Positions 6,709 through 56,764 are shown, counted from the first letter of the stretch. The stretch: 64,000 nt of DNA from a virus (IMGVR_UViG_3300035557_000069), one strand, 5' to 3'. The notes: generated by a model from the letters alone, not told the origin. Numbers and translations are program-made.

Positions 6709-8838
6709 TTATCCTAGTGTTAGTGTTTTCTCTATAGAGACGTAAGATCCTTCAGAGTAACTTTCTGCCTCATAGTAGATTTCTTCGAATGTAGTACCCG
6801 TATCTGCTGGAGTTGCAGTATCGGTTGTATTTTTATTTATGTCAGTTATTAAAGCATCAGAACCACTTATTGTATCCGTTGTGGGCACTTTCGTAACCAC
6901 TGTTGTTAGATATGGGAAAGTATCTTGATTATTTCTAACAACGATTGAGTCCAACAACAATGATGTAACAGTCTTAGAAAGACTATCGGAATTTTCTGCA
7001 TCTACCGTTAGATCCTCTAAGAGTTTAGTATTAACAAACTTGATTACTTCTGTTGCTGATCTTGTCTCAGTTAGGTTCTTGATTGCAACCAAAGAAGTAA
7101 TCAAGTCTTCTGGTAATACCTCATGTGGGTCCTCACCAAACTGAGGCAACACTTTAGTTATCCACAAGTCTGGATCAATATCAAATGCATCCAAGAACTC
7201 TGCATAGTAAGCTGTATCTTGCGAGATAGCACGAATAGCGGTATTCTCTGGAAGAACCAGAAGAGCAACCTTTGTTAGGTCACCAAAGAACTTCAACCCC
7301 GCGGGATGAATGAGATTCAGTGTACTTCTATATTCATCGATGCCTCTAAGTGTCTCTAATACATAAGAGAACATCTGATAGAAGTAATTATCTTGTAAGC
7401 GAATGTTAGGATTAGATAACTGTCCTTCATCAGACTGGAAGATACCACGATACTTAATAGCATAGTCGAATCTATAGAAGAGTGTTGTACGCGAAGCATA
7501 GTACTCTTCAACTGTTAAGTCCGGATCGATTAGCGTTGATGTATTTGCGGAACTACCAACACTTGTTTTGTTGAAGAAAGCAGTAACACCATTATAGTCT
7601 TGGGTGGTATATGCATTTTCGGCAGCTTCACCATAGTAAGAACTACTATCAATAATAGAAGTAACACCAAGAACGGAGTCTAAAACTAACGCGCCTTCCG
7701 CCTCATCTATATCAACAGTGTTATCAATGAAAGAGGTTATACCACTATCTACAGTTCCACTAAAAACCCATTCATCAGTTCTGTAGATATAAAGGTCACC
7801 AACATCAGCTACAACGTCCGTAATATATGCATCGTTATTATTTGGTGAAACCGGTAAATCCCCCGCAGTTGCCAGAACTCCCTTGATGGGTCTGTACAAA
7901 CTGGTAATGTCATATGTGACGTTTCCGGGTTTATTAGGATATGGCGAAACAACAACAAGTTGGTCTTCAGCGTGACCGCGACCATACTCATAGATTTCAA
8001 CCGCAGTCATCTCCCCGTTTGGACCAACGTCAACAACACGGGCTAATGAATCCTTTTCTTCTCCCTCAACAAAGAAAACCTGTCCTTTGCGCCAATCGCG
8101 TCCCGGTGTAATAATCTCAAGATAAGCGGGACTCTTGATTAGTTTACCACGATAGACAATAACGCCATTCTCAATAACGTCAATAATCTGTTCGCCATCT
8201 TCCAGTATCTCCTGAAATCCGTCGATACTATCAATATCAACCATCGTCTGGTCGACAATCTCAATTGTTTGAAAAGCGTTTTCATCTGTCTCAAAGACGA
8301 TGTTAGAGTTATTTCTATAGAAACAACGTGTCGTTTCGGCGTCTAGAATCTCGACTCTATCAACGTCAATGTAGAAGATACCGTTGGCATTCTCGACTTT
8401 AAGTTGGATATTGCTATTAATATCCATCTCACCGTATATTTGTCTAAGTGTGATGGAATTCTCAAAGAGCCAACGACCATCGGAAGCACGAAGAATGTTC
8501 TTACCTGGTTGACGTACAACAACAGCTTCGTTAAAGAAGATACGGAATAACAACTCAACAGCATTAACAGTGCCCTTTGAGTTATACAGATTGCGAATAA
8601 TCTTGATTAGCTTGCGGTCGTTAATTTGAGCAGTAGGAAACTTACTGGCAAACTCTTGGCGCAGGAAGAAAACAAAGTCTTCCGCACACAAGTCCACATC
8701 ACGTGCCTCATCAAACCTAATCGTATACTGGTCAAGAAACTTATAATAAGCCTCCATGAACTCAATAAACTTAGGATAATCGTTCCTGACAAAATCAGGA
8801 ACTTGATTATTAACAAGTAGTGACGTTTGTTTATTCAT
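6709..8838 (-). CDS. gp7: Baseplate wedge protein related to the C-terminal half of T4 gp7, 709 aa.
   Basis: N-terminal segments (PKFIEFMEAYYKFLDQ and KLIKIIRNLYNSKGTVNAVELLFRIFFNEAVVV) resemble T4 gp7 residues ~620-720 (SNFEAFCEAYIQYLSD and ARFFESRSYDFYSTKGIEASYKFLFKVLYNEEVEI) as I recall them. Its start overlaps the gp6 stop (ATGA), matching T4 gene order 6 then 7. Confidence 0.5.
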   Translation of the reverse strand: MNKQTSLLVNNQVPDFVRNDYPKFIEFMEAYYKFLDQYTIRFDEARDVDLCAEDFVFFLRQEFASKFPTAQINDRKLIKIIRNLYNSKGTVNAVELLFRIFFNEAVVVRQPGKNILRASDGRWLFENSITLRQIYGEMDINSNIQLKVENANGIFYIDVDRVEILDAETTRCFYRNNSNIVFETDENAFQTIEIVDQTMVDIDSIDGFQEILEDGEQIIDVIENGVIVYRGKLIKSPAYLEIITPGRDWRKGQVFFVEGEEKDSLARVVDVGPNGEMTAVEIYEYGRGHAEDQLVVVSPYPNKPGNVTYDITSLYRPIKGVLATAGDLPVSPNNNDAYITDVVADVGDLYIYRTDEWVFSGTVDSGITSFIDNTVDIDEAEGALVLDSVLGVTSIIDSSSYYGEAAENAYTTQDYNGVTAFFNKTSVGSSANTSTLIDPDLTVEEYYASRTTLFYRFDYAIKYRGIFQSDEGQLSNPNIRLQDNYFYQMFSYVLETLRGIDEYRSTLNLIHPAGLKFFGDLTKVALLVLPENTAIRAISQDTAYYAEFLDAFDIDPDLWITKVLPQFGEDPHEVLPEDLITSLVAIKNLTETRSATEVIKFVNTKLLEDLTVDAENSDSLSKTVTSLLLDSIVVRNNQDTFPYLTTVVTKVPTTDTISGSDALITDINKNTTDTATPADTGTTFEEIYYEAESYSEGSYVSIEKTLTLG

Positions 8839-20668: not shown

Positions 20669-20803
20669 ATGTACTTACACAAGTTTAGTTTGACTGAATT
20701 GGAAGACATGTTGCCTTGGGAGAGAGATGTGTACTTGGCACTCCTTGATAACTATATCGAAGAACAACGTATTAAGAAAGAAAAGAGTATAGGTGCCCTG
20801 TAA
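20669..20803 (+). CDS. Small ORF of 44 aa (MYLHKFSLTELEDMLPWERDVYLALLDNYIEEQRIKKEKSIGAL), translationally coupled (TAATG) to the tape-measure-like gene. Possibly an assembly chaperone.
   Basis: Read directly from the sequence. It is below the ORF track's 60-aa cutoff. In-frame ATGs at 20669 and 20708. Confidence 0.3.
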   Translation: MYLHKFSLTELEDMLPWERDVYLALLDNYIEEQRIKKEKSIGAL

Positions 20804-22905
20804 TGGCCGATAACAAACTCAAGTTCAAGACAGCTAAGGAATTTAACGAGTTCCTTAGTAGACTCCCCGAAGCAAACAGAGAGAAGATTCTGGAGCAACT
20901 CAATGAAGAGAAGCCCTCGGACTCTCCTGTTACTCCGCCTGTTGATCCTGTTAAACAAGAAATCGATAGCCGTATGGAACAAGTCAGAGAAGAAAAGACT
21001 GCTATGTTTCGTGAGAAGGGTATCATCGGTGAAACGGAAGAACTGTCGGATGACTTGATTAAAACACTCATGGGTGTTCCAACAACGGAGTCAATGGCAG
21101 CCATCGATGACTTGGTCCGTGCGGCTGAGAACCGAATGGCGACCTACGATGATTATGTTGCAGAGACTTATAAGAAAGCGAATGAACATCTTCGTGAGCA
21201 AGGCGTTATTAGTGAGGACGAAACGTACACCCCCGAACAGATTAGAGAGTTGGTTGGCTTCAAGGAACGCACTACAGAGATAATGACTGAGGGTGAAAAG
21301 GAAACGATAACAGAGAAAACGATTGAAAATACTGCTGAGAAGATTGTTGAGAAGGTATTCCAGAAGGAACAAGGTAAAAAGCAGAAAGAAGAGAAAGAGC
21401 GCAAGTCTTTATCCCTAGAGGACCTCCAACAGGAACTTGTAGCACTAGAACGCAGACGCTTAGAAGGTGTTTCTGATGTTGCGGCAAAACGCGAGGAAGC
21501 TGTTATCGGTGAACCCAAGAAGAAAGGTGCTAAACAGTATCTAAAGAATGTTGCCCGCGGGTTCTTCATGGGTGAAGAGTATGCCGATAAGAAAGAAAGA
21601 CAAGCCAAGGAAGCCCAACTAGAAAAGAACAAGCTTGACAAGTTTGTGGAGATTGAACAGTCATTTAATCCAACTGCAACAAGAGAAGAGTTGGAGAGTA
21701 AGTATAATAGACAGAATGAAATAACCAAACAACTTGAGGAAAAAGACAAGGAAATTTCCGAGTATAGTAAACTCGGCGTGGGTGATGAGGACTTAAAGCA
21801 AACTAGAGCATACAAGGAAAAGATTGCACTGTCCAAAGAGATGGCAGAGATGGGTACAAAGACGTTCTCCCAATTTGCCAAGAAGAGTGATAAGGAACAG
21901 TATTACGAAGACCTCCAGAGTAAACTTCAACCAACAGAGGAAGAGAAAACAGAAGCAGAGGTAGACGCTCAAGAAAATCTTGAAGTTCTAAAAGAGCAGA
22001 CAGAGATTAGTGGAGAGCAACTGGAACTCTTCAAGGAAGAGACAGAGAAAAACGATGTGTTTCGAACCGCGATGTTGGCAGCCCTGGCGGGTGGTGTTTT
22101 ATCGGGAAACAATACACCGAGTGTCGATATTGACTTGCCTGGTAGCAAGAGTAAGAAGCCGGGTCTGTTGAGCAGAGCGGGTAATGCCATCAAGAGCGCC
22201 GGCAAAGGTGCCATGGGCGGCTTGACGAAGCTGGGTGGTCTATCGGGTGGTGGTGCGGCTATGGGAGCCGCGACATTAGCGGCTGGAGCGGCAGCAGGTT
22301 ACGGTGTTTATCAAGCAGGTCAGGCGGTCCTCACGGGAAGGTCAGACGTTGGTGACTGGTTCAAGAAAAACGTTTACGACTCTGGTAAAGTCACAGATAG
22401 CGAAAAGGAAGCAACGAAGAAAGCAGACATTGAAAAGCTTGAAAAGCTTAATGTGGAGAGACAAGCGCAAGGTAAGAAACCTCTTGACATTGACTATGAA
22501 ACGGGTATGGTAAAGTCTGGAGTATCTAGTATCACAGCGGCACCTACTGCTATTGATAAAAAGACAGGTAAAGAAACATCACTAACACCAACTAATGAAG
22601 TGTCCCAAGTGTCAACTACTCCAACGGGTCCTGCGGCATCCTCCGTTGTACCTGAACCCATTTCACCTGTTGGTCAAACTAAACCAATGCTTCAATCATC
22701 TGCAAAGTTAGCAGAGAGTACAGACCCATTGATTGGTGCTGCCGAGACGATTGGTAAAAACATCAAAGTAAACGTACCCGCACCGATTGTCCAAAACGCT
22801 GGTGGTGGGGGGAAAGATAGGGTGGTTAGTACACCATTCTCACAACGAATCAAAAATCAAGAACCATCCATCTCAACGTATATCCGAGAGAGATATCTAC
22901 CATAA
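20803..22905 (+). CDS. Coiled-coil, E/K-rich tail-length tape-measure-like protein (gp29-like hub/ruler), 700 aa.
   Basis: Long heptad-like E/K-rich helical region, then a hydrophobic segment (AMLAALAGGVLSG) and a Gly-rich C-terminus. It is the last gene of the plus-strand structural block. Confidence 0.5.
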   Translation: MADNKLKFKTAKEFNEFLSRLPEANREKILEQLNEEKPSDSPVTPPVDPVKQEIDSRMEQVREEKTAMFREKGIIGETEELSDDLIKTLMGVPTTESMAAIDDLVRAAENRMATYDDYVAETYKKANEHLREQGVISEDETYTPEQIRELVGFKERTTEIMTEGEKETITEKTIENTAEKIVEKVFQKEQGKKQKEEKERKSLSLEDLQQELVALERRRLEGVSDVAAKREEAVIGEPKKKGAKQYLKNVARGFFMGEEYADKKERQAKEAQLEKNKLDKFVEIEQSFNPTATREELESKYNRQNEITKQLEEKDKEISEYSKLGVGDEDLKQTRAYKEKIALSKEMAEMGTKTFSQFAKKSDKEQYYEDLQSKLQPTEEEKTEAEVDAQENLEVLKEQTEISGEQLELFKEETEKNDVFRTAMLAALAGGVLSGNNTPSVDIDLPGSKSKKPGLLSRAGNAIKSAGKGAMGGLTKLGGLSGGGAAMGAATLAAGAAAGYGVYQAGQAVLTGRSDVGDWFKKNVYDSGKVTDSEKEATKKADIEKLEKLNVERQAQGKKPLDIDYETGMVKSGVSSITAAPTAIDKKTGKETSLTPTNEVSQVSTTPTGPAASSVVPEPISPVGQTKPMLQSSAKLAESTDPLIGAAETIGKNIKVNVPAPIVQNAGGGGKDRVVSTPFSQRIKNQEPSISTYIRERYLP

Positions 22906-29116: not shown

Positions 29117-29141
29117 AAAAAGCGGGGGATTTCTCCCCCGC
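29117..29141 (-). terminator. Rho-independent terminator after phoH.
   Basis: Minus strand reads GCGGGGGA-gaaa-TCCCCCGC followed by TTTTTCG, 6 nt after the phoH stop. Confidence 0.7.
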
Positions 29142-29146
29142 TAGAG

Positions 29147-31037: not shown

Positions 31038-31406
31038 TTAAGCCTCCAAATCATCGGGGTGAATGTTAAAAACCTTGGGAACCAATACCTTCAAAAGTTT
31101 TCTTACTTCTGAAAGTTTTTCTTCAAGAGCAATAATCCTTGCTTGTTCATCGGTGATACCAAGAGCATACTTGTTGTTAGCTGCCTCATATGCATCATCA
31201 GTGACATACGAAAGTTCACCGAAACCACTAAGACTGTAACCAATCAACTGGGCAAACTGAATGCGGTCTTCCTGTGGAAAATCAACAACAGCCAAATCGT
31301 TCAAGTCGATGTTTCCGTGGTCCAAAAGATACTGAACCAGCTTGTTCCCCTTGAAGCGAATCGTCCCAACGTCCGTGAGATAGAGGGGCTGAATTGGTTG
31401 CATCAC
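31038..31406 (-). CDS. Hypothetical protein, 122 aa.
   Basis: ORF track. Confidence 0.4.
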   Translation of the reverse strand: MMQPIQPLYLTDVGTIRFKGNKLVQYLLDHGNIDLNDLAVVDFPQEDRIQFAQLIGYSLSGFGELSYVTDDAYEAANNKYALGITDEQARIIALEEKLSEVRKLLKVLVPKVFNIHPDDLEA

Positions 31407-31906
31407 TTCACTCCTGTACTGTTATAGGCACCAGTGCCGCGTTCTGTTTCATTAAGTTCTTCGACCATCTGGAAATCAGCGTGAAATACCATGGTGAAAA
31501 CACCTTGGGCAATCCTCTCGCCTGGCTCAAAGAATACTGGCTTATGTGAGAAGTTATACACGATAACACCCACCTCACCACGATAGCCACTATCAACAGT
31601 GCCGGGACTATTAGCGACGATGAAACCCTTCTTTAGGGCAGAACCCGACCGGGTACGAACTTGCATCTCCCAACCAGTGGGCACAGCCACTTTGATGCCC
31701 GTGGGAATAACAGCGACACCACCCGCCGCAATAATCCACTTGTCATAACCAGCAAGTTTCATATCAGCGGGCAATTCGGCTGCCCTCAAGTCATAACCCG
31801 AGTCACCCGGCATAGCAAGTTCAAGAGGATTCCCAACATAGTTGTCAAGATAAACAATCTTAACGGGAAGTCTGTTTGGATACATTATATCTCCTTGGGT
31901 GGACAA
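31403..31906 (-). CDS. dut: dUTP diphosphatase (trimeric dUTPase), 167 aa.
   Basis: Motifs AGYDKW/GDSGYDL, GTVDSGYRGE and RIAQG match dUTPase motifs 1-4. Confidence 0.8.
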   Translation of the reverse strand: MSTQGDIMYPNRLPVKIVYLDNYVGNPLELAMPGDSGYDLRAAELPADMKLAGYDKWIIAAGGVAVIPTGIKVAVPTGWEMQVRTRSGSALKKGFIVANSPGTVDSGYRGEVGVIVYNFSHKPVFFEPGERIAQGVFTMVFHADFQMVEELNETERGTGAYNSTGVK

Positions 31907-32247
31907 ACAATCCTCAGAATGGCAGAGAGTTGTTCTGGTTTAAATGGTTTTTGGAGCCAAGCAGAAGCACCACACGTTTTCGCTTGTTCTTTGCCAACTG
32001 TTGTTAACATCAGAATTGGTGTGAATCTATAACCAGGTGTTTTTCTTAGTTCCTGGCAGAGAGTACAACCATCCATATTCGGCATGTTTAAATCAGTAAT
32101 AATGAGGTCAAACTTGTGTTCTTTGGCAAGACGTAGCGCCATGACACCATCACTTGCTTCCATGACTTTATAGCGCATCTCTGTTAGAGTCATATTTATA
32201 ACGCTTCTAACTGTAGCAGAATCATCAACAACTAAAACCAATTTCAT
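31885..32247 (-). CDS. Stand-alone CheY-like response-regulator receiver (REC) domain protein, 120 aa.
   Basis: All phospho-acceptor pocket residues are present: VVDDS (D12/D13), IITDLNMP (D57), LMLTT (T87), LQKPF (K109). Confidence 0.75.
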   Translation of the reverse strand: MKLVLVVDDSATVRSVINMTLTEMRYKVMEASDGVMALRLAKEHKFDLIITDLNMPNMDGCTLCQELRKTPGYRFTPILMLTTVGKEQAKTCGASAWLQKPFKPEQLSAILRIVCPPKEI

Positions 32248-33560
32248 TTCTTTACTCGTTTGAATGGAATGTTGTCGATGGAGTCAGCTTCGTCTTTATC
32301 AAACCTACGACCAAGAAAGCGCGGAAGATAGAGAGACCATTTAGCATCATTCGTCTTGGCTTTAATTCTCTCGTTGTACGCGACTTCAACGATTGACCCT
32401 TTCCACTCAGAGAAAGGAATGTCTCGGTCTTTATCAGAGAGTCCCGAACCAACAGAGACTTCAACTAAACCATCAGAAGAGACACACTCAAGGGAACCGA
32501 TTTTGCCGGCATACTTACCAGTACCCTCAAGATAACCAACCACTTGGAGATCGCAGGTGATGACGCCCTTGTACTTGATTTGCGTCTTAGACCGCTTACC
32601 TTCCCAGACGTTTTTCTTGTCCTTGAGGATAGTGCCCTCTTCGCCACCTTCATACAACTCGGTGAAGTGCTTGTAGGCTTCTCGCTCGTTGTTTACAATC
32701 TTCGTGTTAACGATAGAGAAATTATAACGTTTGTTGGAGCATTTGTCAACCAACAATCTTAGACGATCCTCATAGGGTGTGGCGCAATAACCCGCGTTCC
32801 AGTCGGCAATCGGAATGATATCGAAGATGATGAAGTGAACCCGTTTAGCGACTTCATAGGGCAGAGTGCCGTGAATGGCTTTGTTGATTAGACCATTTCC
32901 CTTCTTACGGTCCATCAGCTTACCATCGCCTTCAACGACTACCAGTTCCCCATCCAACACATAGTCAGTACCAAAGTCATCAGCAAGACCAGCGTTAAAC
33001 ATATCGTGAAGGTCAAACGGTCGTCCATTCGAGGAGTGGAGTACAAACGCCCCGTTAATCGGGATTGCCTGACACCTCGACCCATCAACCTTGGTCTGAC
33101 TGTATGCGGGGAATGTGATATTCTTAATACTCTTTTCGTCATAAGCAGTCGCCTTCATAACAGGAAACTCGGGAATGAGGTTGGGCCAAATCTCATTGAC
33201 AGTAGACTCGGCCACACCACACTTCGGATCCTTAGCAATGATACGCTTGATAAGTTCACCTGTATCTTCACTTGCTATATTGAGGATGGTGTTCAAGTAA
33301 TTAATTGCGGCAGTACCAGTGACTTGCCGAGTGGACAAAGCACCCAACATATTCATGGCATCATAATCTGTTAGAGTTGATACCGGATTATACAGATACT
33401 TCGGTATCTTTTTGATGTAGAAGTTGGTGAACGGATCCAGTGCCAGCTTGAAGAACAGTTTGAGTTCCTCGTTCATACCATATCGACCGAGAATAAGTTT
33501 CTTCTCATTACGGCTGGCAGTAGCGGCAAGTTCATTCAGAATGTCAAGGTTTGTTTTCAT
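32244..33560 (-). CDS. ATP-dependent DNA ligase (T4 gp30-like), ~438 aa from the Met at 33560.
   Basis: Adenylation motif TKVDGSRC (KxDG). From the internal Met, the N-terminus MKTNLDILNELAATASRNEKKLIL parallels the T4 ligase start MILKILNEIASIGSTKQKQAIL. The track ORF extends 38 codons further upstream, which is probably not used. Confidence 0.8.
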   Translation of the reverse strand: MKTNLDILNELAATASRNEKKLILGRYGMNEELKLFFKLALDPFTNFYIKKIPKYLYNPVSTLTDYDAMNMLGALSTRQVTGTAAINYLNTILNIASEDTGELIKRIIAKDPKCGVAESTVNEIWPNLIPEFPVMKATAYDEKSIKNITFPAYSQTKVDGSRCQAIPINGAFVLHSSNGRPFDLHDMFNAGLADDFGTDYVLDGELVVVEGDGKLMDRKKGNGLINKAIHGTLPYEVAKRVHFIIFDIIPIADWNAGYCATPYEDRLRLLVDKCSNKRYNFSIVNTKIVNNEREAYKHFTELYEGGEEGTILKDKKNVWEGKRSKTQIKYKGVITCDLQVVGYLEGTGKYAGKIGSLECVSSDGLVEVSVGSGLSDKDRDIPFSEWKGSIVEVAYNERIKAKTNDAKWSLYLPRFLGRRFDKDEADSIDNIPFKRVKK

Positions 33561-34008
33561 ACCAAACAGGCCTTTCACGATTTTTCCAAGTAGCGATATG
33601 CCGCTTGGCACCATTATAATAGTTGCGATAGGATTGAACAGCGTCTTGTGTCTTGTATTCGTCGGGCATTGCAAGGGCGAACGGAGTTAACCCACTGTCT
33701 GAAATGCGTGGCAACGGTAGATTGGCCGCGACCACAAACGACTTGTGAACTTTACCGTACCTGTAATTATACTCTGTTTGTAACTCACTTGTCAAGTCAC
33801 GAAGATAAAGCCAGTTAGATAGGGAAGCACGACACCATTTGGCGCAGGGGTGATTTTGGTGAGTCACCCGATATCCTTCGTTGATGCCGGATAGGCGAAC
33901 GGTGGTAGACAGAAGTTGCGCGTACTCCGTAATCATCTTGACCACATGCTTATCAAGATGGGCTTGAGCGCACAACGTTTTGTCCTCGTCAAGGAGAAAG
34001 ATGTTCAA
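33544..34008 (-). CDS. Possible pyrimidine-dimer DNA glycosylase (T4 endonuclease V/DenV-like), 154 aa.
   Basis: The N-terminal MNIFLLDEDKTLCAQAHLDKH and the C-terminal TWKNRERPVWYEN loosely parallel T4 DenV (MTRINLTLVSELADQHL ... AQRPTWYKYYG) as I recall it. Confidence 0.35.
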   Translation of the reverse strand: MNIFLLDEDKTLCAQAHLDKHVVKMITEYAQLLSTTVRLSGINEGYRVTHQNHPCAKWCRASLSNWLYLRDLTSELQTEYNYRYGKVHKSFVVAANLPLPRISDSGLTPFALAMPDEYKTQDAVQSYRNYYNGAKRHIATWKNRERPVWYENKP

Positions 34009-34607: not shown

Positions 34608-34675
34608 TAGAAAGCCTCCTGGTTAGTGTTTCTCAATTACAGATACACTATACAAGAGGCTGAGGTTAATGTCAA
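34608..34675 (-). promoter_or_regulatory. Early promoter cassette of the PeSL-like family: -35 TTGACA (34670-34675), N17, -10 TATAGT (34647-34652).
   Basis: Minus strand reads TTGACAttaacctcagcctcttgTATAGTgtatctgtaattgagaaacactaaccAGGAGGctttctaATG. Confidence 0.6.
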
Positions 34676-34694: not shown

Positions 34695-35138
34695 TTACTT
34701 TTTCTCCCACCAAAAATCAATCCACTCGGAGTTTAACCGCTTGTCGATTTTTCGGCCGAAGAAATCCACGGGTACATGATTTCCTTGATTGTATACACAA
34801 CAGACAATATCCACTTGGTCGCGAGTGCATTCCCATTGCTCTAGAACCTCTTCAACGGTCTTACCAGTGTCAACATACTCGCAGACAAGCAGGATTTTCG
34901 CGCCAGCTTTAATCACGGCTTTAAGTGCTTCGTTATGCTCACGTAACTTTTCTTGATGACACCAATAGAGCAGGGTGGGTCTAGAGTGACGACCACAAAG
35001 CTTATGAGATAGAATGATAGAGGGGACACATCCACCCTTAACCAATCCAACAATGCGGTCATACTTCTTACCACATGCCCTAATCTCCCAAGCGATACGT
35101 TCTATATCCTCGGAGAAATCTTGAAAAGTGTATTCCAT
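34695..35138 (-). CDS. Type I phosphoribosyltransferase, HPRT-like PRPP-binding motif, 147 aa.
   Basis: ILLVCEYVDTGKTV matches the PRPP-binding loop (VLIVEDIIDTGKT). Confidence 0.5.
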   Translation of the reverse strand: MEYTFQDFSEDIERIAWEIRACGKKYDRIVGLVKGGCVPSIILSHKLCGRHSRPTLLYWCHQEKLREHNEALKAVIKAGAKILLVCEYVDTGKTVEEVLEQWECTRDQVDIVCCVYNQGNHVPVDFFGRKIDKRLNSEWIDFWWEKK

Positions 35139-36703: not shown

Positions 36704-36937
36704 TTACTCCACGGGTGTAGTGGGAGTAACCTGCGGAATTGCCTGACCACGAATCTTACCAATGAGATCCGCGACACGCACATAAGGACCGGCTGCCAGC
36801 GCATCAAGCGCCAGGTTGACTTCATCAACAGTCAGAACAAGGGTGATTAGCTTTGGCTCAACGACTTCCTGAGTATTCTCTTCTTTTCCTTCTGTCATCT
36901 TCTTACCTTTCATGGTTACAACGTTATTTTTCTTCAT
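36704..36937 (-). CDS. Small protein translationally coupled to the radical-SAM gene, 77 aa. Possible partner, RRE-like (RiPP-recognition-element) or substrate.
   Basis: Overlaps the rSAM stop by 14 nt. Lys-rich N-terminus, then LITLVLTVDEVNLALDALAAGPYVRVADLIGKI. Confidence 0.4.
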   Translation of the reverse strand: MKKNNVVTMKGKKMTEGKEENTQEVVEPKLITLVLTVDEVNLALDALAAGPYVRVADLIGKIRGQAIPQVTPTTPVE

Positions 36938-37985
36938 CTGTTTTGATCCATTTCAGTTCTGCTGAGGATGTGGTTGTTATGTGTGAATCTCGAAAACCCG
37001 GCGGATACGTCTGTACTGCATACATCATAACTTGATTGTCCATCCACGGTGGTCTGATGTTATCACTTTGTTTTGGGAATGGTGTTTCAATCGGTTGTAG
37101 TCTCATTATCTTTTGAACCAGAGACGGGGATTGTTCAAAACACACACGATTGCAATGGTCCTTACAACACTTGGGTGTACCAAATCGCCAATCACGGAAA
37201 CCAGTCTCCCAGATTTGCCCCATGCTTTCCTTTAGGAGATTGCCTTGAACCGGCGCATCCGTCCAAGAAACCATAGACAGACAAGGAATAACATCGCCGT
37301 TGCAAAGAACACCCAGAGAAGACATTCCCGCGCCGCAGGCACCGCCGTTAAAGTTGTCAGCAACAATAACATCTTTGTATCCCTTCATGGCACTATTAAT
37401 CTTATCACACAACGTCTTGGTTGCATACTCGGATTCATAGATGGCGTTAGAGTTTTTGTCTTTGTACATGGTCAACTGAATCTGCCAAAGCAACCCCCTC
37501 TGCTGAACAACGTCAAAGATGGTTTCAAACATCCATAGATTTGTTTTGTTGAAGTTGGTGATGATGGTCGGGCGATACTTGGTATCCTTGAAGTACTTCG
37601 TATACAGTTCACACTCTCGTTCGGTGTTAATAGAGACGCCGATACCATCATAAAGGTCAAGAATGGCACCCCACTCGGATTCACCATAGGGCATAGAACC
37701 ATCGGTCTTAGGCAAAGACTGGGGATTAACCAAAATCTTCGACTTGATACCTTTACATTTGAAGATATCGGTAATTTCGTAGTGTGCTTTCCAAGGTACA
37801 AGCATAGGATCACCACCAGAAATATTCACCTCTTTGGGTGGATACTTAGCAATCGCTTGTGCAATCTCAGCATACTTTTCGGGATCACGCGACACTCTTA
37901 TTCCATGTTCCTTGGAACCACAATAGTCACAGTTGTTGGTGCATCGGTCGGTAATCTCCCAGATTACTTCATTCAGTCTAATCAT
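36924..37985 (-). CDS. Radical SAM enzyme with a C-terminal SPASM/twitch-type auxiliary Fe-S domain, 353 aa.
   Basis: CxxxCxxC cluster CTNNCDYC. Gly-rich SAM motif ISGGDP. C-terminal GGACGAGMSSLGVLCNGDVIPC ... CCKDHCNRVC matches the SPASM Cys pattern. Confidence 0.75.
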   Translation of the reverse strand: MIRLNEVIWEITDRCTNNCDYCGSKEHGIRVSRDPEKYAEIAQAIAKYPPKEVNISGGDPMLVPWKAHYEITDIFKCKGIKSKILVNPQSLPKTDGSMPYGESEWGAILDLYDGIGVSINTERECELYTKYFKDTKYRPTIITNFNKTNLWMFETIFDVVQQRGLLWQIQLTMYKDKNSNAIYESEYATKTLCDKINSAMKGYKDVIVADNFNGGACGAGMSSLGVLCNGDVIPCLSMVSWTDAPVQGNLLKESMGQIWETGFRDWRFGTPKCCKDHCNRVCFEQSPSLVQKIMRLQPIETPFPKQSDNIRPPWMDNQVMMYAVQTYPPGFRDSHITTTSSAELKWIKTDEEK

Positions 37986-50938: not shown

Positions 50939-51645
50939 TAGATGACGCCCGGAGTAATGATACTCATAACTTCGGCAAGAGTACCCGTGGCATTCTGTCC
51001 GAACGCAACATATGCATAAGAACTGATGAAAGCCATTGCACTAGCATTAGCCGAGACCTCACCGCTTCCGGTAGTCTCAAACGTAGCAGTCAACGTGGCG
51101 ATATCCGCAACAAGAGCCTCGTGGAGTGGTGTAAAGTTCTCTAGAAGATAACCAACGTCCGGACCTTCACCAATTTCCGGCTGATTGGCAATCAACGCGG
51201 CAAACTCCGCCTCATAGCTTGAGTATATAGCCACTTCGCTGGCTTGATAGTCGGCATCGAAAGTTTTTGTACCCAGAAACATATAGGTACTTTGTTCAGC
51301 AACTGGCGGCAGACCATCTAGATTGTTAACCTCATTCTGAACATTAGTGGCGGATGACAGAAACATCAACTTGGTTTTATAAGCATCATTTGCCAACCAA
51401 GTATTGTTATAATGGTCAAGATATACTTCTTTTAACAATTCAAGGGCAGCCAGAACCTCAGCCTTCTCAACGGAGATATCAACAGGCGTCTCAATGGGTT
51501 CTGGATCACCAATCATCTCATAAACGTAAATCGTTTCATAAGTGGTATTAGCAACAGTCTTTAACGCATCAATCGCGGTAAAGATAGCTGTATACGGATT
51601 GGAGACTGGATTACCAGAGGCATCTATTTTATCAGAGTAAGACAT
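50938..51645 (-). CDS. Hypothetical protein co-transcribed upstream of the PAAR gene, 235 aa.
   Basis: AGGAG SD. Its stop overlaps the PAAR start. Confidence 0.45.
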   Translation of the reverse strand: MSYSDKIDASGNPVSNPYTAIFTAIDALKTVANTTYETIYVYEMIGDPEPIETPVDISVEKAEVLAALELLKEVYLDHYNNTWLANDAYKTKLMFLSSATNVQNEVNNLDGLPPVAEQSTYMFLGTKTFDADYQASEVAIYSSYEAEFAALIANQPEIGEGPDVGYLLENFTPLHEALVADIATLTATFETTGSGEVSANASAMAFISSYAYVAFGQNATGTLAEVMSIITPGVI

Positions 51646-51655
51646 GGAGACTCCT

Positions 51656-51831
51656 AAAAGGGTAACCCGTTTTTTTCTGTTTCCAAGACAAAACGGGTAA
51701 AATCTCAGTCGCGGTTAAGCGGCAAGGGCAAAGTCATACTCGCCTTTTATTGCTTTTGTCTGATATACGGCCATGACATTCCGGACTGTCCATCTTCGTA
51801 CTTGTTACCCAGTCGAAACCTTGGCACCCCC
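51656..51831 (-). ncRNA. ssrA: tmRNA (ssrA) 5' acceptor piece: acceptor 5' strand GGGGGUG (51831-51825), spacer CCAAG, D-loop analogue GUUUCGACUGGG (51819-51808), then a downstream region ending in an intrinsic terminator hairpin (51665-51698 plus a U-tract).
   Basis: Read from the sequence. Spacing and sequence match the E. coli tmRNA 5' end GGGGCUG-AUUCU-GGAUUCGACGGG. GGGGGUG pairs with the 3' strand CACCUCC at 51931-51937, with a G3·U wobble. The terminator is ACCCGUUUU...AAAACGGGU plus CUUUU. Confidence 0.55.
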
Positions 51832-51926
51832 ATCAACAGCATACTAGCAGAAGCCTCTAATCTCGCCCCAGTGGGCATAACACATGGCCTCAGTGCCCCG
51901 ATGTGTCCGGGATGATAGTATGCTCT

Positions 51927-52010
51927 TGGTGGAGGTGGCGGGATCGAACCCGCGTCCTAAGCACCTTTCGGTTGACTTCATACAGTCATATTGCTATTTA
52001 GTTATTACTA
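51927..52010 (-). ncRNA. ssrA: tmRNA (ssrA) 3' piece: T-arm, acceptor 3' strand and ACCA end (core 51927-51957), with short hairpins upstream. It lies 95 nt upstream of the 5' acceptor piece, so the gene looks circularly permuted (two-piece). The upstream boundary is uncertain.
   Basis: Minus strand reads GGAC-GCGGG-UUCGAU-CCCGC-CACCUCC-A-CCA. The E. coli tmRNA 3' end is GGACGCGGGUUCAACUCCCGCCAGCUCCACCA. A73 discriminator. No canonical tRNA 5' half lies within 100 nt upstream. Confidence 0.55.
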
Positions 52011-52328
52011 GAAACGTATTTCGTGATCAACAAGTGGTCCAAGATACTTGTTAATATCAGGATAAGTGCGAATAGTTTTCCACTCACACCACCTCGGTTT
52101 ATGATATCCTCGTTCCGCGTGTTCACTAGTATCAGAAAGATACTCAAACAGGGCGGCGACCATAAGAATCATAAACGGATGGGTCTTTCTATTCACATTA
52201 TGATGTTTATTAAACTGTGAAAGATACGCTCTTCCAGTATCACAATGAGCCACAGTTGTGCAGGACTTCACAACCTTTATGACTTTTTTCAAGTCCGAGT
52301 GTGCTTTACAGTTGTCATAGAAACTCAT
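52008..52328 (-). CDS. ORF of 106 aa that ends in three consecutive stops (UAG UAA UAA), ~50 nt before the tmRNA T-arm. It may be a protein gene and/or may contain the tmRNA tag reading frame.
   Basis: ORF track. SD AAGGAA upstream. The triple-stop reading is from the sequence. Confidence 0.3.
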   Translation of the reverse strand: MSFYDNCKAHSDLKKVIKVVKSCTTVAHCDTGRAYLSQFNKHHNVNRKTHPFMILMVAALFEYLSDTSEHAERGYHKPRWCEWKTIRTYPDINKYLGPLVDHEIRF

Positions 52329-53755: not shown

Positions 53756-55180
53756 TCACAAAATGGGTTTATTTGCGTTCTCCCGAATCTTCTCAAAGTT
53801 AGTCAAGGCAACAAACGGCTCATACAGTTTCTTCGTCATAGTGTAGACCAAGTTCAGGATAATCTTGTCTTCCCAATTCTGGTCATCCAGACGAACGGTT
53901 TTTGCCTTGCCTTCCTCGTCCTCCACGACAGTGAGGCGACCACGTTTGCTTTCTTTGCCCGGTGCTTCCTTGAAAACATCAATCCATTTACCATTGACAA
54001 GCAGGGCGCAACACTTCATGGCGAATCCGTAGGTGTCGCGGTTAACGTGTTGGAGCAGGGCACCACCCATCCCGAATGCTACGTTGTCAGCACTGAAACC
54101 TGCCCACTTGAGAGTAGCTAGGATTTCGTTGATGCTGGCTTTGTTGATGCCGTCTCCTTGAATAACGCGAACATAAGGAGGAAGCACTTTGTAACCCTTG
54201 CTGTTCCGAGTGGTACCAAACTTCTCTGCAAGGATTTCAACACAACGGCGTACGGTCGGAGCGGGGTCCCCCGAGTCCGGACGAATAACCAGAGTACCAC
54301 CAACTGCGCCGAGGGCTTCAACATCTGCCTTCAACTCGGTACCCCAGAGTTCACAAGCCTTGAAGATATCGTAGCTGTCCGAAACAACAGCCACAAGCTT
54401 GCCAGGACCGCCGTATTGTTTCAGCATATTGCGGTATGCTTCAACTTCGTTGTCTTTACCCCAACTGGTGATGGTGCTATGTTCAGCCGCAGGAATACTG
54501 AACCCTGCCATCTCTGCACCGTAGTAGTGATTGGCATACTGAACACCCTCAACAGTGTCCGAGCCGAGAAAGTTTACAAGGTGAGCCGCACCGCCGATAC
54601 CAGCAGTTTCACCCGAAGAGCAACCACGACCACCGAAGTCATGGAGTTTGAATGCGACTTGCTCTTGAACGTCACTGGTCCGCTCAAGGAAGTCTTTGAT
54701 GACTTTCTTGCAGTCATAACTTACAGTGGCGACCGAAGACGGGTACCAGATGGCGCGAAGTAGAGCCGTTTCGAGGAAGTTCACGATCCAAAAGCACACA
54801 GGATCAGTACAACATATCGTAAGTAAGCAATTACGATTTTTAATAACAGTTCCTTCAGGTAAAGCCTTGATAGTGACAGGCATATATCCTTTATACTCGG
54901 TTAGTATATACTCAAATCCTTGTTTATTGAAAGGAACCCCATGTGCTTTACAGAACAGTTCAGCCTCTTCAATATCAGCTTGAGTAATCGGGGTGAGTAG
55001 ATAGTCCTTGATGAACATCTGTAATCCAAAGAACACAAGATGATCTCCTCCTCTCGCTTCAATATACGATTGCATCCCCTCGGCTCCCGGAGGATATTGT
55101 CCTTGATGTTCAGTGTTATTGATACCGATTGAATGCGAGAATTTGTATGAATCGGTGGATAGTAGGATATTTCTTTTCAT
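53756..55180 (-). CDS. nadV: Nicotinamide phosphoribosyltransferase (NadV/Nampt), 474 aa.
   Basis: Length and motifs (STDSYKFSH N-terminus, IRPDSGDP, GDGI) are typical of Nampt. Confidence 0.85.
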   Translation of the reverse strand: MKRNILLSTDSYKFSHSIGINNTEHQGQYPPGAEGMQSYIEARGGDHLVFFGLQMFIKDYLLTPITQADIEEAELFCKAHGVPFNKQGFEYILTEYKGYMPVTIKALPEGTVIKNRNCLLTICCTDPVCFWIVNFLETALLRAIWYPSSVATVSYDCKKVIKDFLERTSDVQEQVAFKLHDFGGRGCSSGETAGIGGAAHLVNFLGSDTVEGVQYANHYYGAEMAGFSIPAAEHSTITSWGKDNEVEAYRNMLKQYGGPGKLVAVVSDSYDIFKACELWGTELKADVEALGAVGGTLVIRPDSGDPAPTVRRCVEILAEKFGTTRNSKGYKVLPPYVRVIQGDGINKASINEILATLKWAGFSADNVAFGMGGALLQHVNRDTYGFAMKCCALLVNGKWIDVFKEAPGKESKRGRLTVVEDEEGKAKTVRLDDQNWEDKIILNLVYTMTKKLYEPFVALTNFEKIRENANKPIL

Positions 55181-55223
55181 AGTAAGTCTCCCTTACTTTG
55201 GTGATGGTGAGTTGTCTATCAAC

Positions 55224-55754
55224 TCACTTATTGAATTGGTGTTTATAAGCCCGTTCTAACCAGATTTTCCATTGCTCTAAACTATGTTCTTTCTTGGAGT
55301 AGTTACAAGCAGAACAACATGGTACAACGTTATCTAGTGTGTAACCCTTGTTATTATCTACCCTATCAATACCGTTATACAGCAACGTATCATAGACCAT
55401 TCTCATTTCTGTGTTCGGTACTGTACCACAATAGTAGCATGACTGTTGCGTAATGTCAACCACATTTTGTAGTGTAAGTTCGAATAATATACCTCTCTTC
55501 TTGGCACCGCTTACGTAACGTCTGTACAACTTTCGTTTGAGACCCATTTGGTCGGGGAATCGACGATTTGGTCTAGGTGGTGAACAATCTTTACACGCCA
55601 GGCGTATTGAGTTACGTAAATCCGTAATATGTGCGTATCTAACACCACCACACTCACACTGACATACCCACTTCTTACGTTCATTATCAAAGTATGTCAG
55701 TGTGAGTTTTCCATATTTCTCGCCGCTTGTTGCTGAGTTATTTGTTCTTGCCAT
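55224..55754 (-). CDS. HNH family endonuclease, a probable free-standing homing endonuclease, 176 aa.
   Basis: N-terminal Cys4 zinc finger (CQCECGG ... CKDC). HNH core CYYCG ... GIDRVDNNKGYTLDNVVPCCSACNYSK. It sits between the two NAD-salvage genes. Confidence 0.7.
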   Translation of the reverse strand: MARTNNSATSGEKYGKLTLTYFDNERKKWVCQCECGGVRYAHITDLRNSIRLACKDCSPPRPNRRFPDQMGLKRKLYRRYVSGAKKRGILFELTLQNVVDITQQSCYYCGTVPNTEMRMVYDTLLYNGIDRVDNNKGYTLDNVVPCCSACNYSKKEHSLEQWKIWLERAYKHQFNK

Positions 55755-55958
55755 TTTGTGTCCGTTTCCAAATAAGTATTTTTATGATTACACTTATTTA
55801 GTAACAGTCACTTTTCTAGGCCTCACTCCTTTTCGGTAATCAGGCTCAACTGCCCACAAGCGGCGCCGGCGGCAACTTCGGCTTCTGTAGCGATAGCAAC
55901 AGCGAAGTCAAAACCGGCTTCTTTAAGTTCCTGAGCGATTTTCTCCATGGTATTCTCC

Positions 55959-56762
55959 TTAGATAATGTTAGTTGTGGTAATGATGCCGGCGCCCAGCCC
56001 ATTCTGGTCGCTAATCTCATTACGATTGATTGGTGATAGCTTGATGAAGAAATACTTTGGGTCAAAATACCTCTTGAGTTTGTCAATGTCAAAGTCCGCT
56101 TCATCGACCAGTGTAAGATTCACAGTGGTCTTCAACTTGCTTTTGGTGCGAATCTGACCAAGTTCTTCAATGGTCATCAGATTGTTCACTGGAATAAGTT
56201 CACGCCTGCGGTCTTCATCTAGTGAATGAAGACTAATCTGGAGCGTGATGTTGTCCTTAATCCAAGAGAAGTCCGACCCCCTAACGCCGATAGTGCTGAT
56301 ATAGTGATGAAACAGAATATCATTTCTGTGTTGCTGGAACATATCAATAGCTTTCCTGACTTCATCAATATTCAGAAAAGGCTCACCCATGCGAGTATAG
56401 TTAATCTTGAGTTCCTTGGGATGTTCGAAGCCAAGAGAATCCAAGAATTCCTCGTTCTTCTCAAGCATAACAAACTTGACTTGGTCTGTAATCTCCTTAG
56501 CAGTAAGATTGCGCCAGCCCTTCATCTGCCCAGTGGCGCAGAACTTACATCCAACAGGACAACCGGACATAGTGGACACACCAATCATCCAGCGTTCTGC
56601 TCTGGAGCCGATATTACCATCCCGCAACGCATTGGTGCCGTTGACACACTCCTTGGTATAGTAAGGCAGAAATGTGTCCGTAGTCTCAATCAGTCGCCCG
56701 TCTTCCAGTTCAAGACAGTAGACGGATCCGTTTGTGAAATGTCGGCTTCGTAGTTCTTTCAT
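55959..56762 (-). CDS. Radical SAM enzyme with an RlmN/Cfr-type cluster motif, N-terminally minimal, 267 aa.
   Basis: CPVGCKFCATG matches the RlmN/Cfr CxxGCxFCxTG pattern. GEPFLN is present. The ~60-aa N-terminal RNA-binding domain of RlmN is absent. Confidence 0.55.
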   Translation of the reverse strand: MKELRSRHFTNGSVYCLELEDGRLIETTDTFLPYYTKECVNGTNALRDGNIGSRAERWMIGVSTMSGCPVGCKFCATGQMKGWRNLTAKEITDQVKFVMLEKNEEFLDSLGFEHPKELKINYTRMGEPFLNIDEVRKAIDMFQQHRNDILFHHYISTIGVRGSDFSWIKDNITLQISLHSLDEDRRRELIPVNNLMTIEELGQIRTKSKLKTTVNLTLVDEADFDIDKLKRYFDPKYFFIKLSPINRNEISDQNGLGAGIITTTNII

Positions 56763-56764
56763 CG

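What the first reader, a model, noticed from the sequence alone, without database searches (positions are those of the whole stretch)
31885..32247. Stand-alone phosphorylatable CheY-like receiver domain encoded by the phage
The 120-aa protein has every residue of the receiver phospho-acceptor pocket (DD, D57-equivalent, T87, K109) but no output domain. It sits in the nucleotide-metabolism and replication cluster and overlaps dut. A phage receiver could act as a phosphate sink or decoy for host histidine kinases or the chemotaxis phosphorelay. Phage-encoded single-domain response regulators are not commonly described.
Basis: partly seen in the sequence, partly recalled or inferred. Interest (0 to 1): 0.65.

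Follow-up and report, generated by a model that had tools for sequence, protein, structure and literature searches.

The report
Phage-borne CheY-type receiver protein
A T4-like phage carries a complete bacterial CheY-type signalling protein, captured from a CheA-linked chemosensory pathway and altered only on its output face; it probably diverts phosphate from the host kinase, but no experiment has tested this.

Summary
ORF 31885-32247 (-) encodes a 120-aa stand-alone receiver (Pfam PF00072, E 4.9e-27; AF2 pLDDT 93). All five active-site residues are present: D8, D9, D52, T82, K100.

It sits between DNA ligase and dUTPase in a T4-like myovirus, joined to both by overlapping stop/start codons (ATGA, TAATG).

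It is a true CheY, not a generic receiver.
- The best solved relative is Vibrio cholerae CheY4 (TM 0.90, 45% identity).
- In 66 of 80 bacterial genomes the closest homologue lies directly upstream of cheA. In 40 of 80 a STAS gene is adjacent, the cheS-cheY1-cheA layout whose CheY1 is the proven phosphate sink in Sinorhizobium.

The gene looks lineage-specific. The nearest phage relative has ligase-ATGA-dut with no receiver, and I found no kinase, Hpt or STAS gene in the window.

Divergence from cellular homologues is confined to residues 83-99 (α4 face): 32% identity against 69% within the family, plus a unique 4-residue deletion.

A phosphate sink or decoy for host CheA is the best reading, at about 0.4. 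It is unproven.

CheY-like genes are already annotated in a few phages, with no function tested. I rate this a new member of a known kind, of moderate interest.

The parts
31885..32247 (-). Gene for the 120-aa single-domain receiver (CheY4/CheY1-type CheY)
   Evidence: ORF. Pfam PF00072 E 4.9e-27. AF2 pLDDT 93.2 with (beta-alpha)5 topology. Foldseek top hit V. cholerae CheY4 4HNR, TM 0.90, rmsd 1.3.
32221..32226 (-). Codons for D8-D9, the metal-binding acidic pair
   Evidence: GATGAT read. Invariant in 60 homologues.
32092..32094 (-). Codon for D52, the predicted phospho-acceptor aspartate (motif ITDLNMPNMDG)
   Evidence: GAT read. Invariant in 60/60. Same number as D52 of V. cholerae CheY4 (PMC3774744).
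32002..32004 (-). Codon for T82 (conserved Thr at the end of beta4)
   Evidence: ACA read. Conserved in at least 90% of homologues.
31948..31950 (-). Codon for K100 (conserved Lys at the end of beta5, followed by P101)
   Evidence: AAA read. Invariant.
31951..32001 (-). Residues 83-99: beta4-alpha4 loop, alpha4 and beta5. This is the only strongly diverged part. It carries a 4-residue deletion, T+2 E->V, G->A at 96 and V->Q at 99. W97, the switch aromatic, is kept.
   Evidence: Identity to 59 homologues is 0.32 against 0.69 among homologues (sd 0.05, min 0.48); other regions have ratios of 0.73-1.07. The deletion is seen in none of the 59. The gap is also present against CheY4 in phmmer.
32244..33560 (-). 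ATP-dependent DNA ligase gene. Its TGA stop overlaps the receiver's ATG (ATGA at 32244-32247).
   Evidence: Pfam PF01068 + PF14743. 438-aa gene call in the twin contig L004. Sequence.
31403..31885 (-). dUTPase gene. Its ATG shares one base with the receiver's TAA (TAATG, 31883-31887); GGAG lies 8 nt upstream.
   Evidence: Pfam PF00692. 160-aa gene call in L004. Sequence.
32721..32749 (-). Perfect sigma-70 consensus (TTGACA-17-TATAAT) inside the ligase gene, about 475 nt upstream of the receiver start. Possibly an early-type promoter.
   Evidence: 12/12 match. It is a consensus match only; function is inferred.
33766..33795 (-). Second perfect sigma-70 consensus (TTGACA-18-TATAAT), upstream of the ligase gene
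   Evidence: 12/12 match. Consensus match only.
29121..29142 (-). Strong terminator-like hairpin after phoH. Likely end of the transcription unit that contains ligase, receiver and dut.
   Evidence: 9-bp stem with 7 GC pairs and a T run. Inferred.

Best explanation
**What it is (confidence about 0.95).**
- It is a host-derived single-domain response regulator of the CheY4/CheY1 clade. In bacteria these CheY proteins are encoded immediately upstream of the kinase CheA, often next to a small STAS protein (CheS).
- It was inserted between the ligase and dUTPase genes of a T4-like phage.
- It is probably co-translated with them from early-type promoters.

**How it most likely works (inferred; the confidence of 0.4 given for this explanation refers to this mechanism).**
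- The phage carries no kinase of its own in the window. The protein would therefore be phosphorylated on D52 by the host's CheA-P, or by acetyl phosphate.
- Made in quantity early in infection, it would compete with the host's own CheY proteins for phosphoryl groups. That would make it a phosphate sink or decoy.
- This would silence or reset the host's CheA-dependent output, whether motility bias or the poorly understood stress-linked output of Aer2/STAS-type systems.
- The alpha4-beta5 face, which cellular CheYs use to bind their targets, has been remodelled. This fits a protein that still takes phosphate but no longer delivers the normal signal.

**Shown versus inferred.**
- Shown: fold, active-site residues, family, gene context, lineage-specific presence, localised divergence.
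- Inferred: phosphorylation, donor, sink behaviour, benefit to the phage.
For: - **True receiver.** PF00072 over the full length. All five catalytic residues plus P at D+4 and an aromatic at K-3 are present. This meets the definition of a true receiver rather than a pseudo-receiver in PMC12632262.
- **Structure.** The AF2 model has pLDDT 93.2.
- **Best solved relatives.** V. cholerae CheY4 entries 4HNR/4H60: phmmer E 8.1e-25; Foldseek TM 0.90, rmsd 1.3, 45% identity.
- **Gene context of homologues.**
  - Among the 80 closest named-genome loci, cheA is directly downstream in 66, a STAS gene is adjacent in 40, and some che gene lies within 4 kb in 78.
  - Examples with Pfam or PGAP annotation: Brumicola (RsbU-STAS-CheY-CheA-CheW-CheW-MCP-CheR-CheD-CheB), metagenome contigs, a Rhizobium plasmid and an Aeromonas plasmid.
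- **Literature on the family.**
  - In S. meliloti, the cheS-cheY1-cheA CheY1 is the sink, and CheS raises its affinity for CheA about 100-fold (PMC4214558, PMC8225110, PMC12654446).
  - CheY4 does not bind FliM and was proposed to be a sink (PMC3774744).
- **No partners in the phage window.** No CheA, Hpt, HisKA, HATPase, STAS, CheW, CheR or CheD homologue was found. The small neighbouring ORFs have no signalling domain.
- **Lineage-specific.**
  - The closest relative, with a ligase 70% identical, has ligase-ATGA-dut and no receiver.
  - More distant relatives lack it too.
- **Host-derived.** The protein nests inside the bacterial family in a neighbour-joining tree, with terminal branch 0.235 against a family median of 0.111.
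- **Localised divergence.** It is confined to residues 83-99.
- **Expression signals.** Coupled stop/start codons and two perfect sigma-70 consensus sites lie upstream.
Against: - No experiment or computation here shows phosphorylation, a donor or a sink effect.
- The host is unknown, so it is unknown whether it has a matching CheA/CheS system.
- Only 64 kb of the phage genome was seen. T4-like relatives found here run to about 160-176 kb. A kinase or partner could be encoded elsewhere.
- The beta4-alpha4 loop also touches Hpt/DHp partners in some solved complexes (my own knowledge). The deletion could therefore weaken kinase docking rather than output.
- T+2 changes from E to V. Positions D+2 and T+2 set phosphorylation and dephosphorylation rates (PMC12632262). 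A hydrophobic T+2 could slow dephosphorylation, which would make a poor catalytic sink and a better stoichiometric trap or stable switch.
- Nine deviations at conserved columns and a low GC3 would also fit a recently acquired gene under relaxed constraint.
- Deleting or overexpressing the CheY homologues of V. cholerae systems I and III gave no detectable phenotype (PMC11940527). The pathway's output is itself unknown.
Confidence: 0.4

Rival explanations
1. Phosphorylation-dependent switch with a new target. The phage protein is phosphorylated by host CheA and so reads the host's chemosensory, oxygen or energy state. It then uses its remodelled alpha4-beta5 face to bind a phage or host protein and tune infection, for example replication or lysis timing.
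For: The active site and the switch residues T82 and W97 are intact. Change is concentrated on the face that receivers use for output, while the rest of the protein stays within the family range. That pattern is expected for retargeting. The gene is co-transcribed with replication and nucleotide genes.
Against: No candidate partner was identified. The neighbouring small ORFs have no recognisable domains. No second phage allele is available to show that the new face is conserved.
Confidence: 0.22
2. Phosphorylation-independent inhibitor. The protein binds and sequesters host CheA, or the CheA-CheS complex, stoichiometrically and blocks signalling without turnover of phosphate.
For: Family members bind CheA-CheS very tightly; S. 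meliloti CheY1 binds about 100-fold better when CheS is present (PMC4214558). Overall family similarity is retained outside residues 83-99. The T+2 E->V change may alter the reaction kinetics (PMC12632262).
Against: All five catalytic residues are strictly kept. A pure binder would not need them. Alpha1, a main kinase-docking helix, has the second-lowest identity ratio of the seven regions compared (0.73).
Confidence: 0.13
3. Neutral passenger. The gene was picked up recently, has no role for the phage, and is beginning to decay.
For: It is present in one lineage only. It deviates at 9 of 49 highly conserved family columns, against a mean of 1.6 for homologues, and carries a unique deletion. 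Its GC3 of 0.325 is the second lowest of 76 genes.
Against: The ORF is intact with an unambiguous start. The predicted fold is confident. Every catalytic residue is kept, and divergence is confined to one surface instead of being spread evenly. Overlapping stop/start codons on both sides suggest integration into the operon. The best homologue is only 58% identical (59% in the MAFFT alignment), which argues for long residence or fast evolution rather than a very recent pick-up.
Confidence: 0.2
4. Assembly chimera or bacterial contamination, so not a phage gene.
For: The contig comes from a metagenome, and the protein is bacterial in origin.
Against: Phage genes flank it on both sides with overlapping codons. 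T4-like baseplate, tail, gp32, RNR and NAD-salvage genes span the window. A second assembly (L004, 9,183 bp) is 100% identical over the same gene order, although it may derive from the same sample.
Confidence: 0.01

Closest known systems
Vibrio cholerae CheY4 (VCA1096, che cluster III / F7-type Aer2 system; PDB 4H60, 4HNR)
   Same: It is a single 120-aa receiver with the same residue numbers for D9, D52, N54 and T82. Trp sits at the switch position. It is the best sequence and fold match among solved structures. It is encoded next to cheA, with RsbU/RsbV(STAS) genes in the same cluster (PMC10107281; the Brumicola example).
   Different: Identity is only 45%. The phage protein lacks four residues of the beta4-alpha4 loop/alpha4, the segment that changes most between free and sulfate-bound CheY4 (PMC3774744). 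It has V instead of E at T+2. It is encoded with no che genes around it.
Sinorhizobium meliloti / Agrobacterium fabrum CheY1 (phosphate-sink CheY of the cheS-cheY1-cheA operon)
   Same: Half of the closest homologues share the STAS-CheY-CheA gene order. The published A. fabrum CheY1 positions W102 and V104 fit the family consensus GW-I-V-K (PMC8225110). This is the experimentally established example of a CheY that drains phosphate through CheA (PMC4214558).
   Different: I could not obtain the CheY1 sequence to compare directly. The phage protein has Q where CheY1 and the family have V (E. coli V108 position) and a shortened alpha4. No CheS or CheA is encoded in the phage window.
CheY-like auxiliary genes of Alteromonas phages V22 (gp30), A5 (gp11) and P24
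   Same: These are phage-encoded proteins consisting essentially of a receiver domain. They are annotated as class II auxiliary metabolic genes, and their function is untested (PMC7289586, PMC10579305).
   Different: Similarity is at fold level only: V22 protein A0A6C0R1B8 gives TM 0.85 and 19% identity. They are 147-149 aa and lie in the host-recognition (tail fibre) module, not the replication module. They represent an independent acquisition.
Escherichia coli CheY
   Same: The fold, the five catalytic residues and the DxNMPNMDG motif are shared.
   Different: Identity is 34%. E. coli CheY is the outgroup to the family in the tree. The FliM-binding positions A90/K92 fall in the deleted segment, and V108 is Q in the phage protein (positions from PMC8225110).

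Membership tests
True receiver domain (PF00072), as opposed to a pseudo-receiver | (beta-alpha)5 fold | tested here: met
   The AF2 model has pLDDT 93.2 with five strands and five helices in order. 596 PDB matches have E<=0.001, and the 50 best listed are nearly all receiver domains.
True receiver domain (PF00072), as opposed to a pseudo-receiver | All five active-site residues: the DD pair, the phospho-acceptor D, T/S and K (definition in PMC12632262) | tested here: met
   D8, D9, D52, T82 and K100 are present. D8, D9, D52 and K100 are invariant and T82 is kept in at least 90% of 60 homologues.
True receiver domain (PF00072), as opposed to a pseudo-receiver | Is actually phosphorylated on the aspartate | not testable with these tools
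   Needs biochemistry: acetyl phosphate or CheA-32P.
CheY (chemotaxis-type single-domain response regulator) | Single receiver domain with no output domain | tested here: met
   120 aa. The Pfam match covers residues 4-111 and no other domain is found.
CheY (chemotaxis-type single-domain response regulator) | Encoded with, and phosphorylated by, CheA | tested here: inconclusive
   Homologues: cheA is directly downstream in 66 of 80. Phage copy: no che gene anywhere in the 64-kb window. Phosphotransfer itself is not testable.
CheY (chemotaxis-type single-domain response regulator) | Binds the flagellar switch protein FliM when phosphorylated | not testable with these tools
   The closest solved relative, CheY4, does not bind FliM (PMC3774744). 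In the phage protein the FliM-contact region of alpha4 is partly deleted and the V108 equivalent is Q.
CheY4/CheY1 clade (STAS-associated CheY upstream of cheA) | Nests within the clade by sequence and is closest to its solved member | tested here: met
   50-59% identity to clade members. It lies inside the clade in the NJ tree, with E. coli CheY and two other phage CheYs outside. CheY4 is the top PDB hit.
CheY4/CheY1 clade (STAS-associated CheY upstream of cheA) | Clade signature in beta4-alpha4-beta5: TTES....GK.AGA(T/S)GW(I/L)VKPF | tested here: not met
   The phage has TTVG----KEQAKTCGASAWLQKPF. That is a 4-aa deletion plus E84V, S85G, G89A, A92C, G96A and V99Q at columns conserved in at least 85% of the family. 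Regional identity is 0.32 against 0.69.
Phosphate-sink response regulator | Receives phosphoryl groups from the same kinase as an output regulator and lowers that regulator's phosphorylation | not testable with these tools
   This rests only on analogy with S. meliloti CheY1 (PMC4214558) and the proposal for CheY4 (PMC3774744).
Alteromonas-phage CheY-like auxiliary gene family (V22 gp30) | Sequence homology beyond the shared receiver fold | tested here: not met
   19% identity in the structural alignment. tblastn identity to Alteromonas phages is 28-29%.

The most novel reading that the evidence does not exclude
A lytic T4-like phage uses a captured, output-face-remodelled CheY to hijack the host's CheA phosphorelay during infection. 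It would either drain phosphate to shut the pathway off or read the pathway to time its own development. This would be the first demonstrated case of a virus interfering directly with bacterial chemosensory phosphotransfer.
Probability: 0.3. Interest if true: 0.7.

Novelty: new member of a known kind. Interest (0 to 1): 0.45.

Why it matters
Phages are known to tamper with host transcription, metabolism, pili and quorum sensing. My literature searches found no tested case of a phage protein acting inside a two-component or chemotaxis phosphorelay.

This gene makes a clean test case:
- It is small and has every catalytic residue.
- It belongs to the CheY clade that contains the textbook phosphate sink.
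- It differs from all cellular relatives on one surface only.

If it drains or reads host CheA, that would show a new layer of host takeover. It might also give a handle on the still-unknown output of Aer2/STAS-type chemosensory systems.

If it does nothing, it is one more sporadic host gene in a large phage.

Tried and rejected
- **Close phage relatives in GenBank.** Megablast of 8 kb around the gene against 50,697 phage records found nothing.
- **Receiver hits in that phage collection.** tblastn of the receiver gave 158 records, all below 41% identity. Many listed hits look like host-contaminated contig sets or prophages. The real phage hits (Alteromonas phages, a spring virome contig, a 735-kb megaphage) are 27-29% identical.
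- **IMG/VR scans with single proteins.** Scans with the receiver and with the ligase found no relatives.
- **IMG/VR scan with PhoH.** It gave 38 related T4-like loci. None has a receiver within the flanks held. They are not syntenic, so this is weak evidence.
- **Non-receiver flavodoxin-like family.** Rejected by Pfam, NCBIfam and fold search.
- **Pseudo-receiver.** Rejected, because all five residues are present.
- **Defence-system component.** Rejected; PADLOC gave only marginal hits at E about 4e-4.
- **Phage-encoded partner.** phmmer with CheA, STAS, CheW, MCP, CheR, CheD, SpoIIE, histidine kinases and GGDEF-EAL proteins against all window ORFs hit only the receiver itself. Pfam on ten small neighbouring ORFs found no signalling domain.
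- **Donor or host from the nearest homologues.** This failed. Identity plateaus at 50-59% across Desulfuromonadota, Sphingomonadales, Ignavibacteria, Acidobacteria and others.
- **Direct comparison with S. meliloti CheY1.** Not possible: the key paper (PMC3294773) is not held and I did not have the sequence.
- **dN/dS.** Cannot be computed, because the only second copy is 100% identical.

Full report
**1. The observation**

The minus-strand ORF 31885..32247 encodes 120 residues:

MKLVLVVDDSATVRSVINMTLTEMRYKVMEASDGVMALRLAKEHKFDLIITDLNMPNMDGCTLCQELRKTPGYRFTPILMLTTVGKEQAKTCGASAWLQKPFKPEQLSAILRIVCPPKEI.

- Pfam assigns residues 4-111 to PF00072 Response_reg across the whole profile (E 4.9e-27, 94.7 bits against a cut-off of 30.2). 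No second domain is found.
- NCBIfam matches only the receiver part of many regulators. None of the listed family matches reaches its own cut-off, so no named equivalog applies.
- I read the catalytic codons from the DNA: D8-D9 at 32221-32226, D52 at 32092-32094, T82 at 32002-32004, and K100 at 31948-31950, followed by P101.
- P56 (D+4) and W97 (K-3, the switch aromatic) are also present.
- Under the definition in PMC12632262, a receiver with all five residues is a true receiver and not a pseudo-receiver.
- An AlphaFold2 model built on 60 homologues has mean pLDDT 93.2 and the expected five strands and five helices.

**2. Setting**

The window is a T4-like myovirus.
- It encodes baseplate wedge and hub proteins, a tail tube and gp32.
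- It also encodes ribonucleotide reductase, nicotinamide phosphoribosyltransferase plus an NMN-adenylyltransferase/Nudix protein, PhoH and ThyX.
- Its gp32 is only 47-48% identical to the nearest deposited phages, which are marine cyanomyoviruses. Megablast of 8 kb around the gene finds no deposited phage.

The receiver gene lies between an ATP-dependent DNA ligase and a dUTPase.
- Its ATG overlaps the ligase stop (ATGA).
- Its TAA shares a base with the dut ATG (TAATG), with GGAG 8 nt upstream.
- An independent gene call on a second contig uses the same starts.
- Two perfect TTGACA-17/18-TATAAT matches lie upstream on the same strand, one of them inside the ligase gene.
- A strong terminator-like hairpin follows phoH.
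- These signals suggest early, host-sigma-70-driven expression in one unit with replication genes. This is an inference from consensus matches.

A 9,183-bp contig from another assembly is 100% identical over this region. This argues against a chimera, although it may come from the same sample.

**3. Which receiver it is**

In a search of 5.8 billion proteins, the only hit above 58% BLASTP identity (59% in the MAFFT alignment) is the protein itself. Thousands of 119-123-aa bacterial single-domain regulators follow at 50-59% identity.

Their gene context is consistent.
- In Brumicola the order is RsbU-like phosphatase, STAS, CheY, CheA, CheW, CheW, globin/PAS chemoreceptor, CheR, CheD, CheB.
- In two metagenome contigs the order is MCP, STAS, CheY, CheA.
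- In the 80 best loci from named genomes, cheA starts directly downstream in 66, a STAS gene is adjacent in 40, and some che gene lies within 4 kb in 78.
- PGAP-annotated plasmids show the same layout.

The best solved relative by sequence and by fold is V. cholerae CheY4 (phmmer E 8.1e-25; TM 0.90, rmsd 1.3, 45% identity).
- CheY4 belongs to che cluster III, an F7-class Aer2 system that also contains RsbU/RsbV (PMC10107281, PMC11940527).
- CheY4 does not bind FliM, and its authors suggested it may be a phosphate sink (PMC3774744).

The STAS-CheY-CheA order matches cheS-cheY1-cheA of S. meliloti and A. fabrum.
- There CheY1 is the experimentally shown sink, and CheS raises CheY1's affinity for CheA about 100-fold (PMC4214558, PMC8225110, PMC12654446).
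- The published A. fabrum CheY1 positions W102 and V104 fit the family consensus.
- I could not compare the sequence directly.

A rough neighbour-joining tree places the phage protein inside this bacterial family, next to a Desulfuromonas-like group. Its terminal branch is long (0.235 against a family median of 0.111). E. coli CheY and two other phage CheYs fall outside the family.

**4. What is special about the phage copy**

D8, D9, D52 and K100 are invariant across 60 sequences, and T82 is kept in at least 90%. The phage protein nevertheless deviates at 9 of 49 columns that are at least 85% conserved in the family. Homologues deviate at a mean of 1.6 and a maximum of 7.
- Six of the nine deviations lie in residues 84-99. 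A 4-residue deletion found in none of the 59 homologues lies there too.
- The gap also appears against CheY4 in an independent phmmer alignment.

| Region | Phage identity to homologues | Identity among homologues |
|---|---|---|
| Residues 83-99 | 0.32 | 0.69 (sd 0.05, minimum 0.48) |
| Each of the other six regions | ratio to family mean 0.73-1.07 | (reference) |

The affected segment is the beta4-alpha4 loop, alpha4 and beta5.
- This is the segment that rearranges between free and sulfate-bound CheY4 (PMC3774744).
- It contains the E. coli FliM-contact positions A90 and K92 (in the deleted stretch) and V108 (Q99 in the phage protein) (PMC8225110).
- T+2 changes from E, found in 98% of the family, to V. 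T+2 influences phosphorylation and dephosphorylation kinetics and Y-T coupling (PMC12632262).

In short, the pocket is kept and the output face is rebuilt. Whether this reflects adaptation or local decay cannot be decided from a single allele.

**5. Origin**

- The closest relative I found has a ligase 70% identical and a dut 59% identical. There the ligase is followed directly by dut with the same ATGA overlap, and no receiver lies between them.
- Relatives with ligases 52-54% identical lack the receiver too.
- None of 38 PhoH-related T4-like IMG/VR loci has one in the flanks held, although these loci are not syntenic.
- Gain in this lineage is therefore the parsimonious reading.
- The gene's GC3 is 0.325, the second lowest of 76 genes (mean 0.466, sd 0.066). 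The nearest bacterial homologue genes are GC-rich. The true donor is probably unsampled.

**6. Partners**

phmmer with CheA, STAS, CheW, MCP, CheR, CheD, SpoIIE, two histidine kinases, a hybrid kinase, a sigma-54 regulator and a GGDEF-EAL protein hit only the receiver among all window ORFs of 40 aa or more. Ten small neighbouring ORFs have no signalling domain. PADLOC gives nothing meaningful. Any phosphodonor must therefore be of host origin, or be encoded outside the 64 kb seen.

**7. Mechanism**

Best-supported reading, at about 0.4: the protein is an early-expressed phospho-acceptor that competes for host CheA-P, acting as a sink or decoy. It would switch off or reset a host chemosensory output.

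The rivals are:
- a phosphorylation-dependent switch with a new target through the remodelled face (0.22);
- a neutral passenger gene (0.20);
- a phosphorylation-independent CheA/CheS binder (0.13);
- an assembly artefact (0.01).

The steps shown are fold, residues, family, context, lineage-specific presence and localised divergence. Everything about phosphate flow and benefit to the phage is inferred.

**8. Novelty**

Phage CheY-like genes are rare but not new.
- V22 gp30, A5 gp11 and P24 of Alteromonas phages were called class II auxiliary genes, with no functional test (PMC7289586, PMC10579305).
- Phages of ammonia oxidisers are reported to carry CheY, CheR and MCP genes (10.64898/2026.05.02.722434).
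- BFVD holds about 28 viral receiver folds, mostly from giant eukaryotic viruses.
- An IMG/VR scan for NMPNMDG-type CheYs returned six loci. One is a 172-kb contig with flagellin, FlaG and CheY. Another is a 359-kb contig with a canonical gamma-proteobacterial-type CheY.
- The present gene is an independent capture from a different CheY clade, 19% identical to V22's protein.

I rate it a new member of a known kind, of moderate interest (0.45). The sink-clade ancestry and the surface-restricted divergence make it a good experimental target.

Noticed in passing
window 51645-52043 (-): The phage encodes a two-piece (permuted) tmRNA. ARAGORN calls tmRNA* with the tag GEYDFALAA. Rfam RF04321 tmRNA_permuted scores 104.6 bits (cut-off 47) at 51715-51987. 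RF01850 beta_tmRNA scores 82.4 bits, just under its cut-off of 84, over its full length. Two-piece tmRNAs have been reported in marine and aquatic phages (PMC9004378). From my own knowledge, the ...FALAA ending and the beta_tmRNA match hint at a beta/gamma-proteobacterial host.
   Followed up: partly
L131 4036-8354 (IMGVR_UViG_3300026484_000295, 172 kb): A large viral contig encodes a full flagellin (Flagellin_N + Flagellin_C), a FlaG protein and a 119-aa canonical CheY within 4 kb of one another, next to a CCA-adding/poly(A) polymerase-type enzyme. This is a second, unrelated set of motility and chemotaxis genes in a phage.
   Followed up: partly
L132 7986-8381 (IMGVR_UViG_3300015606_001334, 359 kb): A jumbo-phage contig carries a 131-aa CheY whose residues from about 55 onward are nearly identical to E. 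coli CheY (DWNMPNMDG...VTAEAKKENIIAAAQAGAS), next to a PP-loop (TilS-like) enzyme.
   Followed up: partly
window 32721-32749, 33766-33795, 34647-34675 (-): There are two perfect (12/12) sigma-70 consensus promoters and one at 11/12, all on the coding strand and two of them inside coding sequence. The total number of promoter-like sites is no higher than in shuffled sequence. By my estimate, however, two perfect matches in 10 kb are far more than chance would give. They may be T4-style early promoters.
   Followed up: no
window 20803-22905 (+): A 700-aa ORF has no PHROG match. It lies in the stretch with the strongest GC skew (+0.18) and AT skew (+0.20) in the window.
   Followed up: no
window 53756-57796 (-): This is an NAD-salvage module: nicotinamide phosphoribosyltransferase (474 aa), a 267-aa protein of unknown function, and a cytidylyltransferase/Nudix (NadR/NadM-like) protein (343 aa).
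   Followed up: no
window 36924-37985 (-) and 34695-35138 (-): A radical SAM/SPASM protein (353 aa) lies beside ThyX. A weak phosphoribosyltransferase-like protein (147 aa, below the Pfam cut-off) is also in the replication cluster.
   Followed up: no
window 3863-6226 and 6709-8838 (-): The large baseplate-wedge/fibre-like genes have among the lowest GC3 values in the window (0.31 and 0.35). Together with the receiver gene they are compositional outliers, which may mark horizontally exchanged modules.
   Followed up: no
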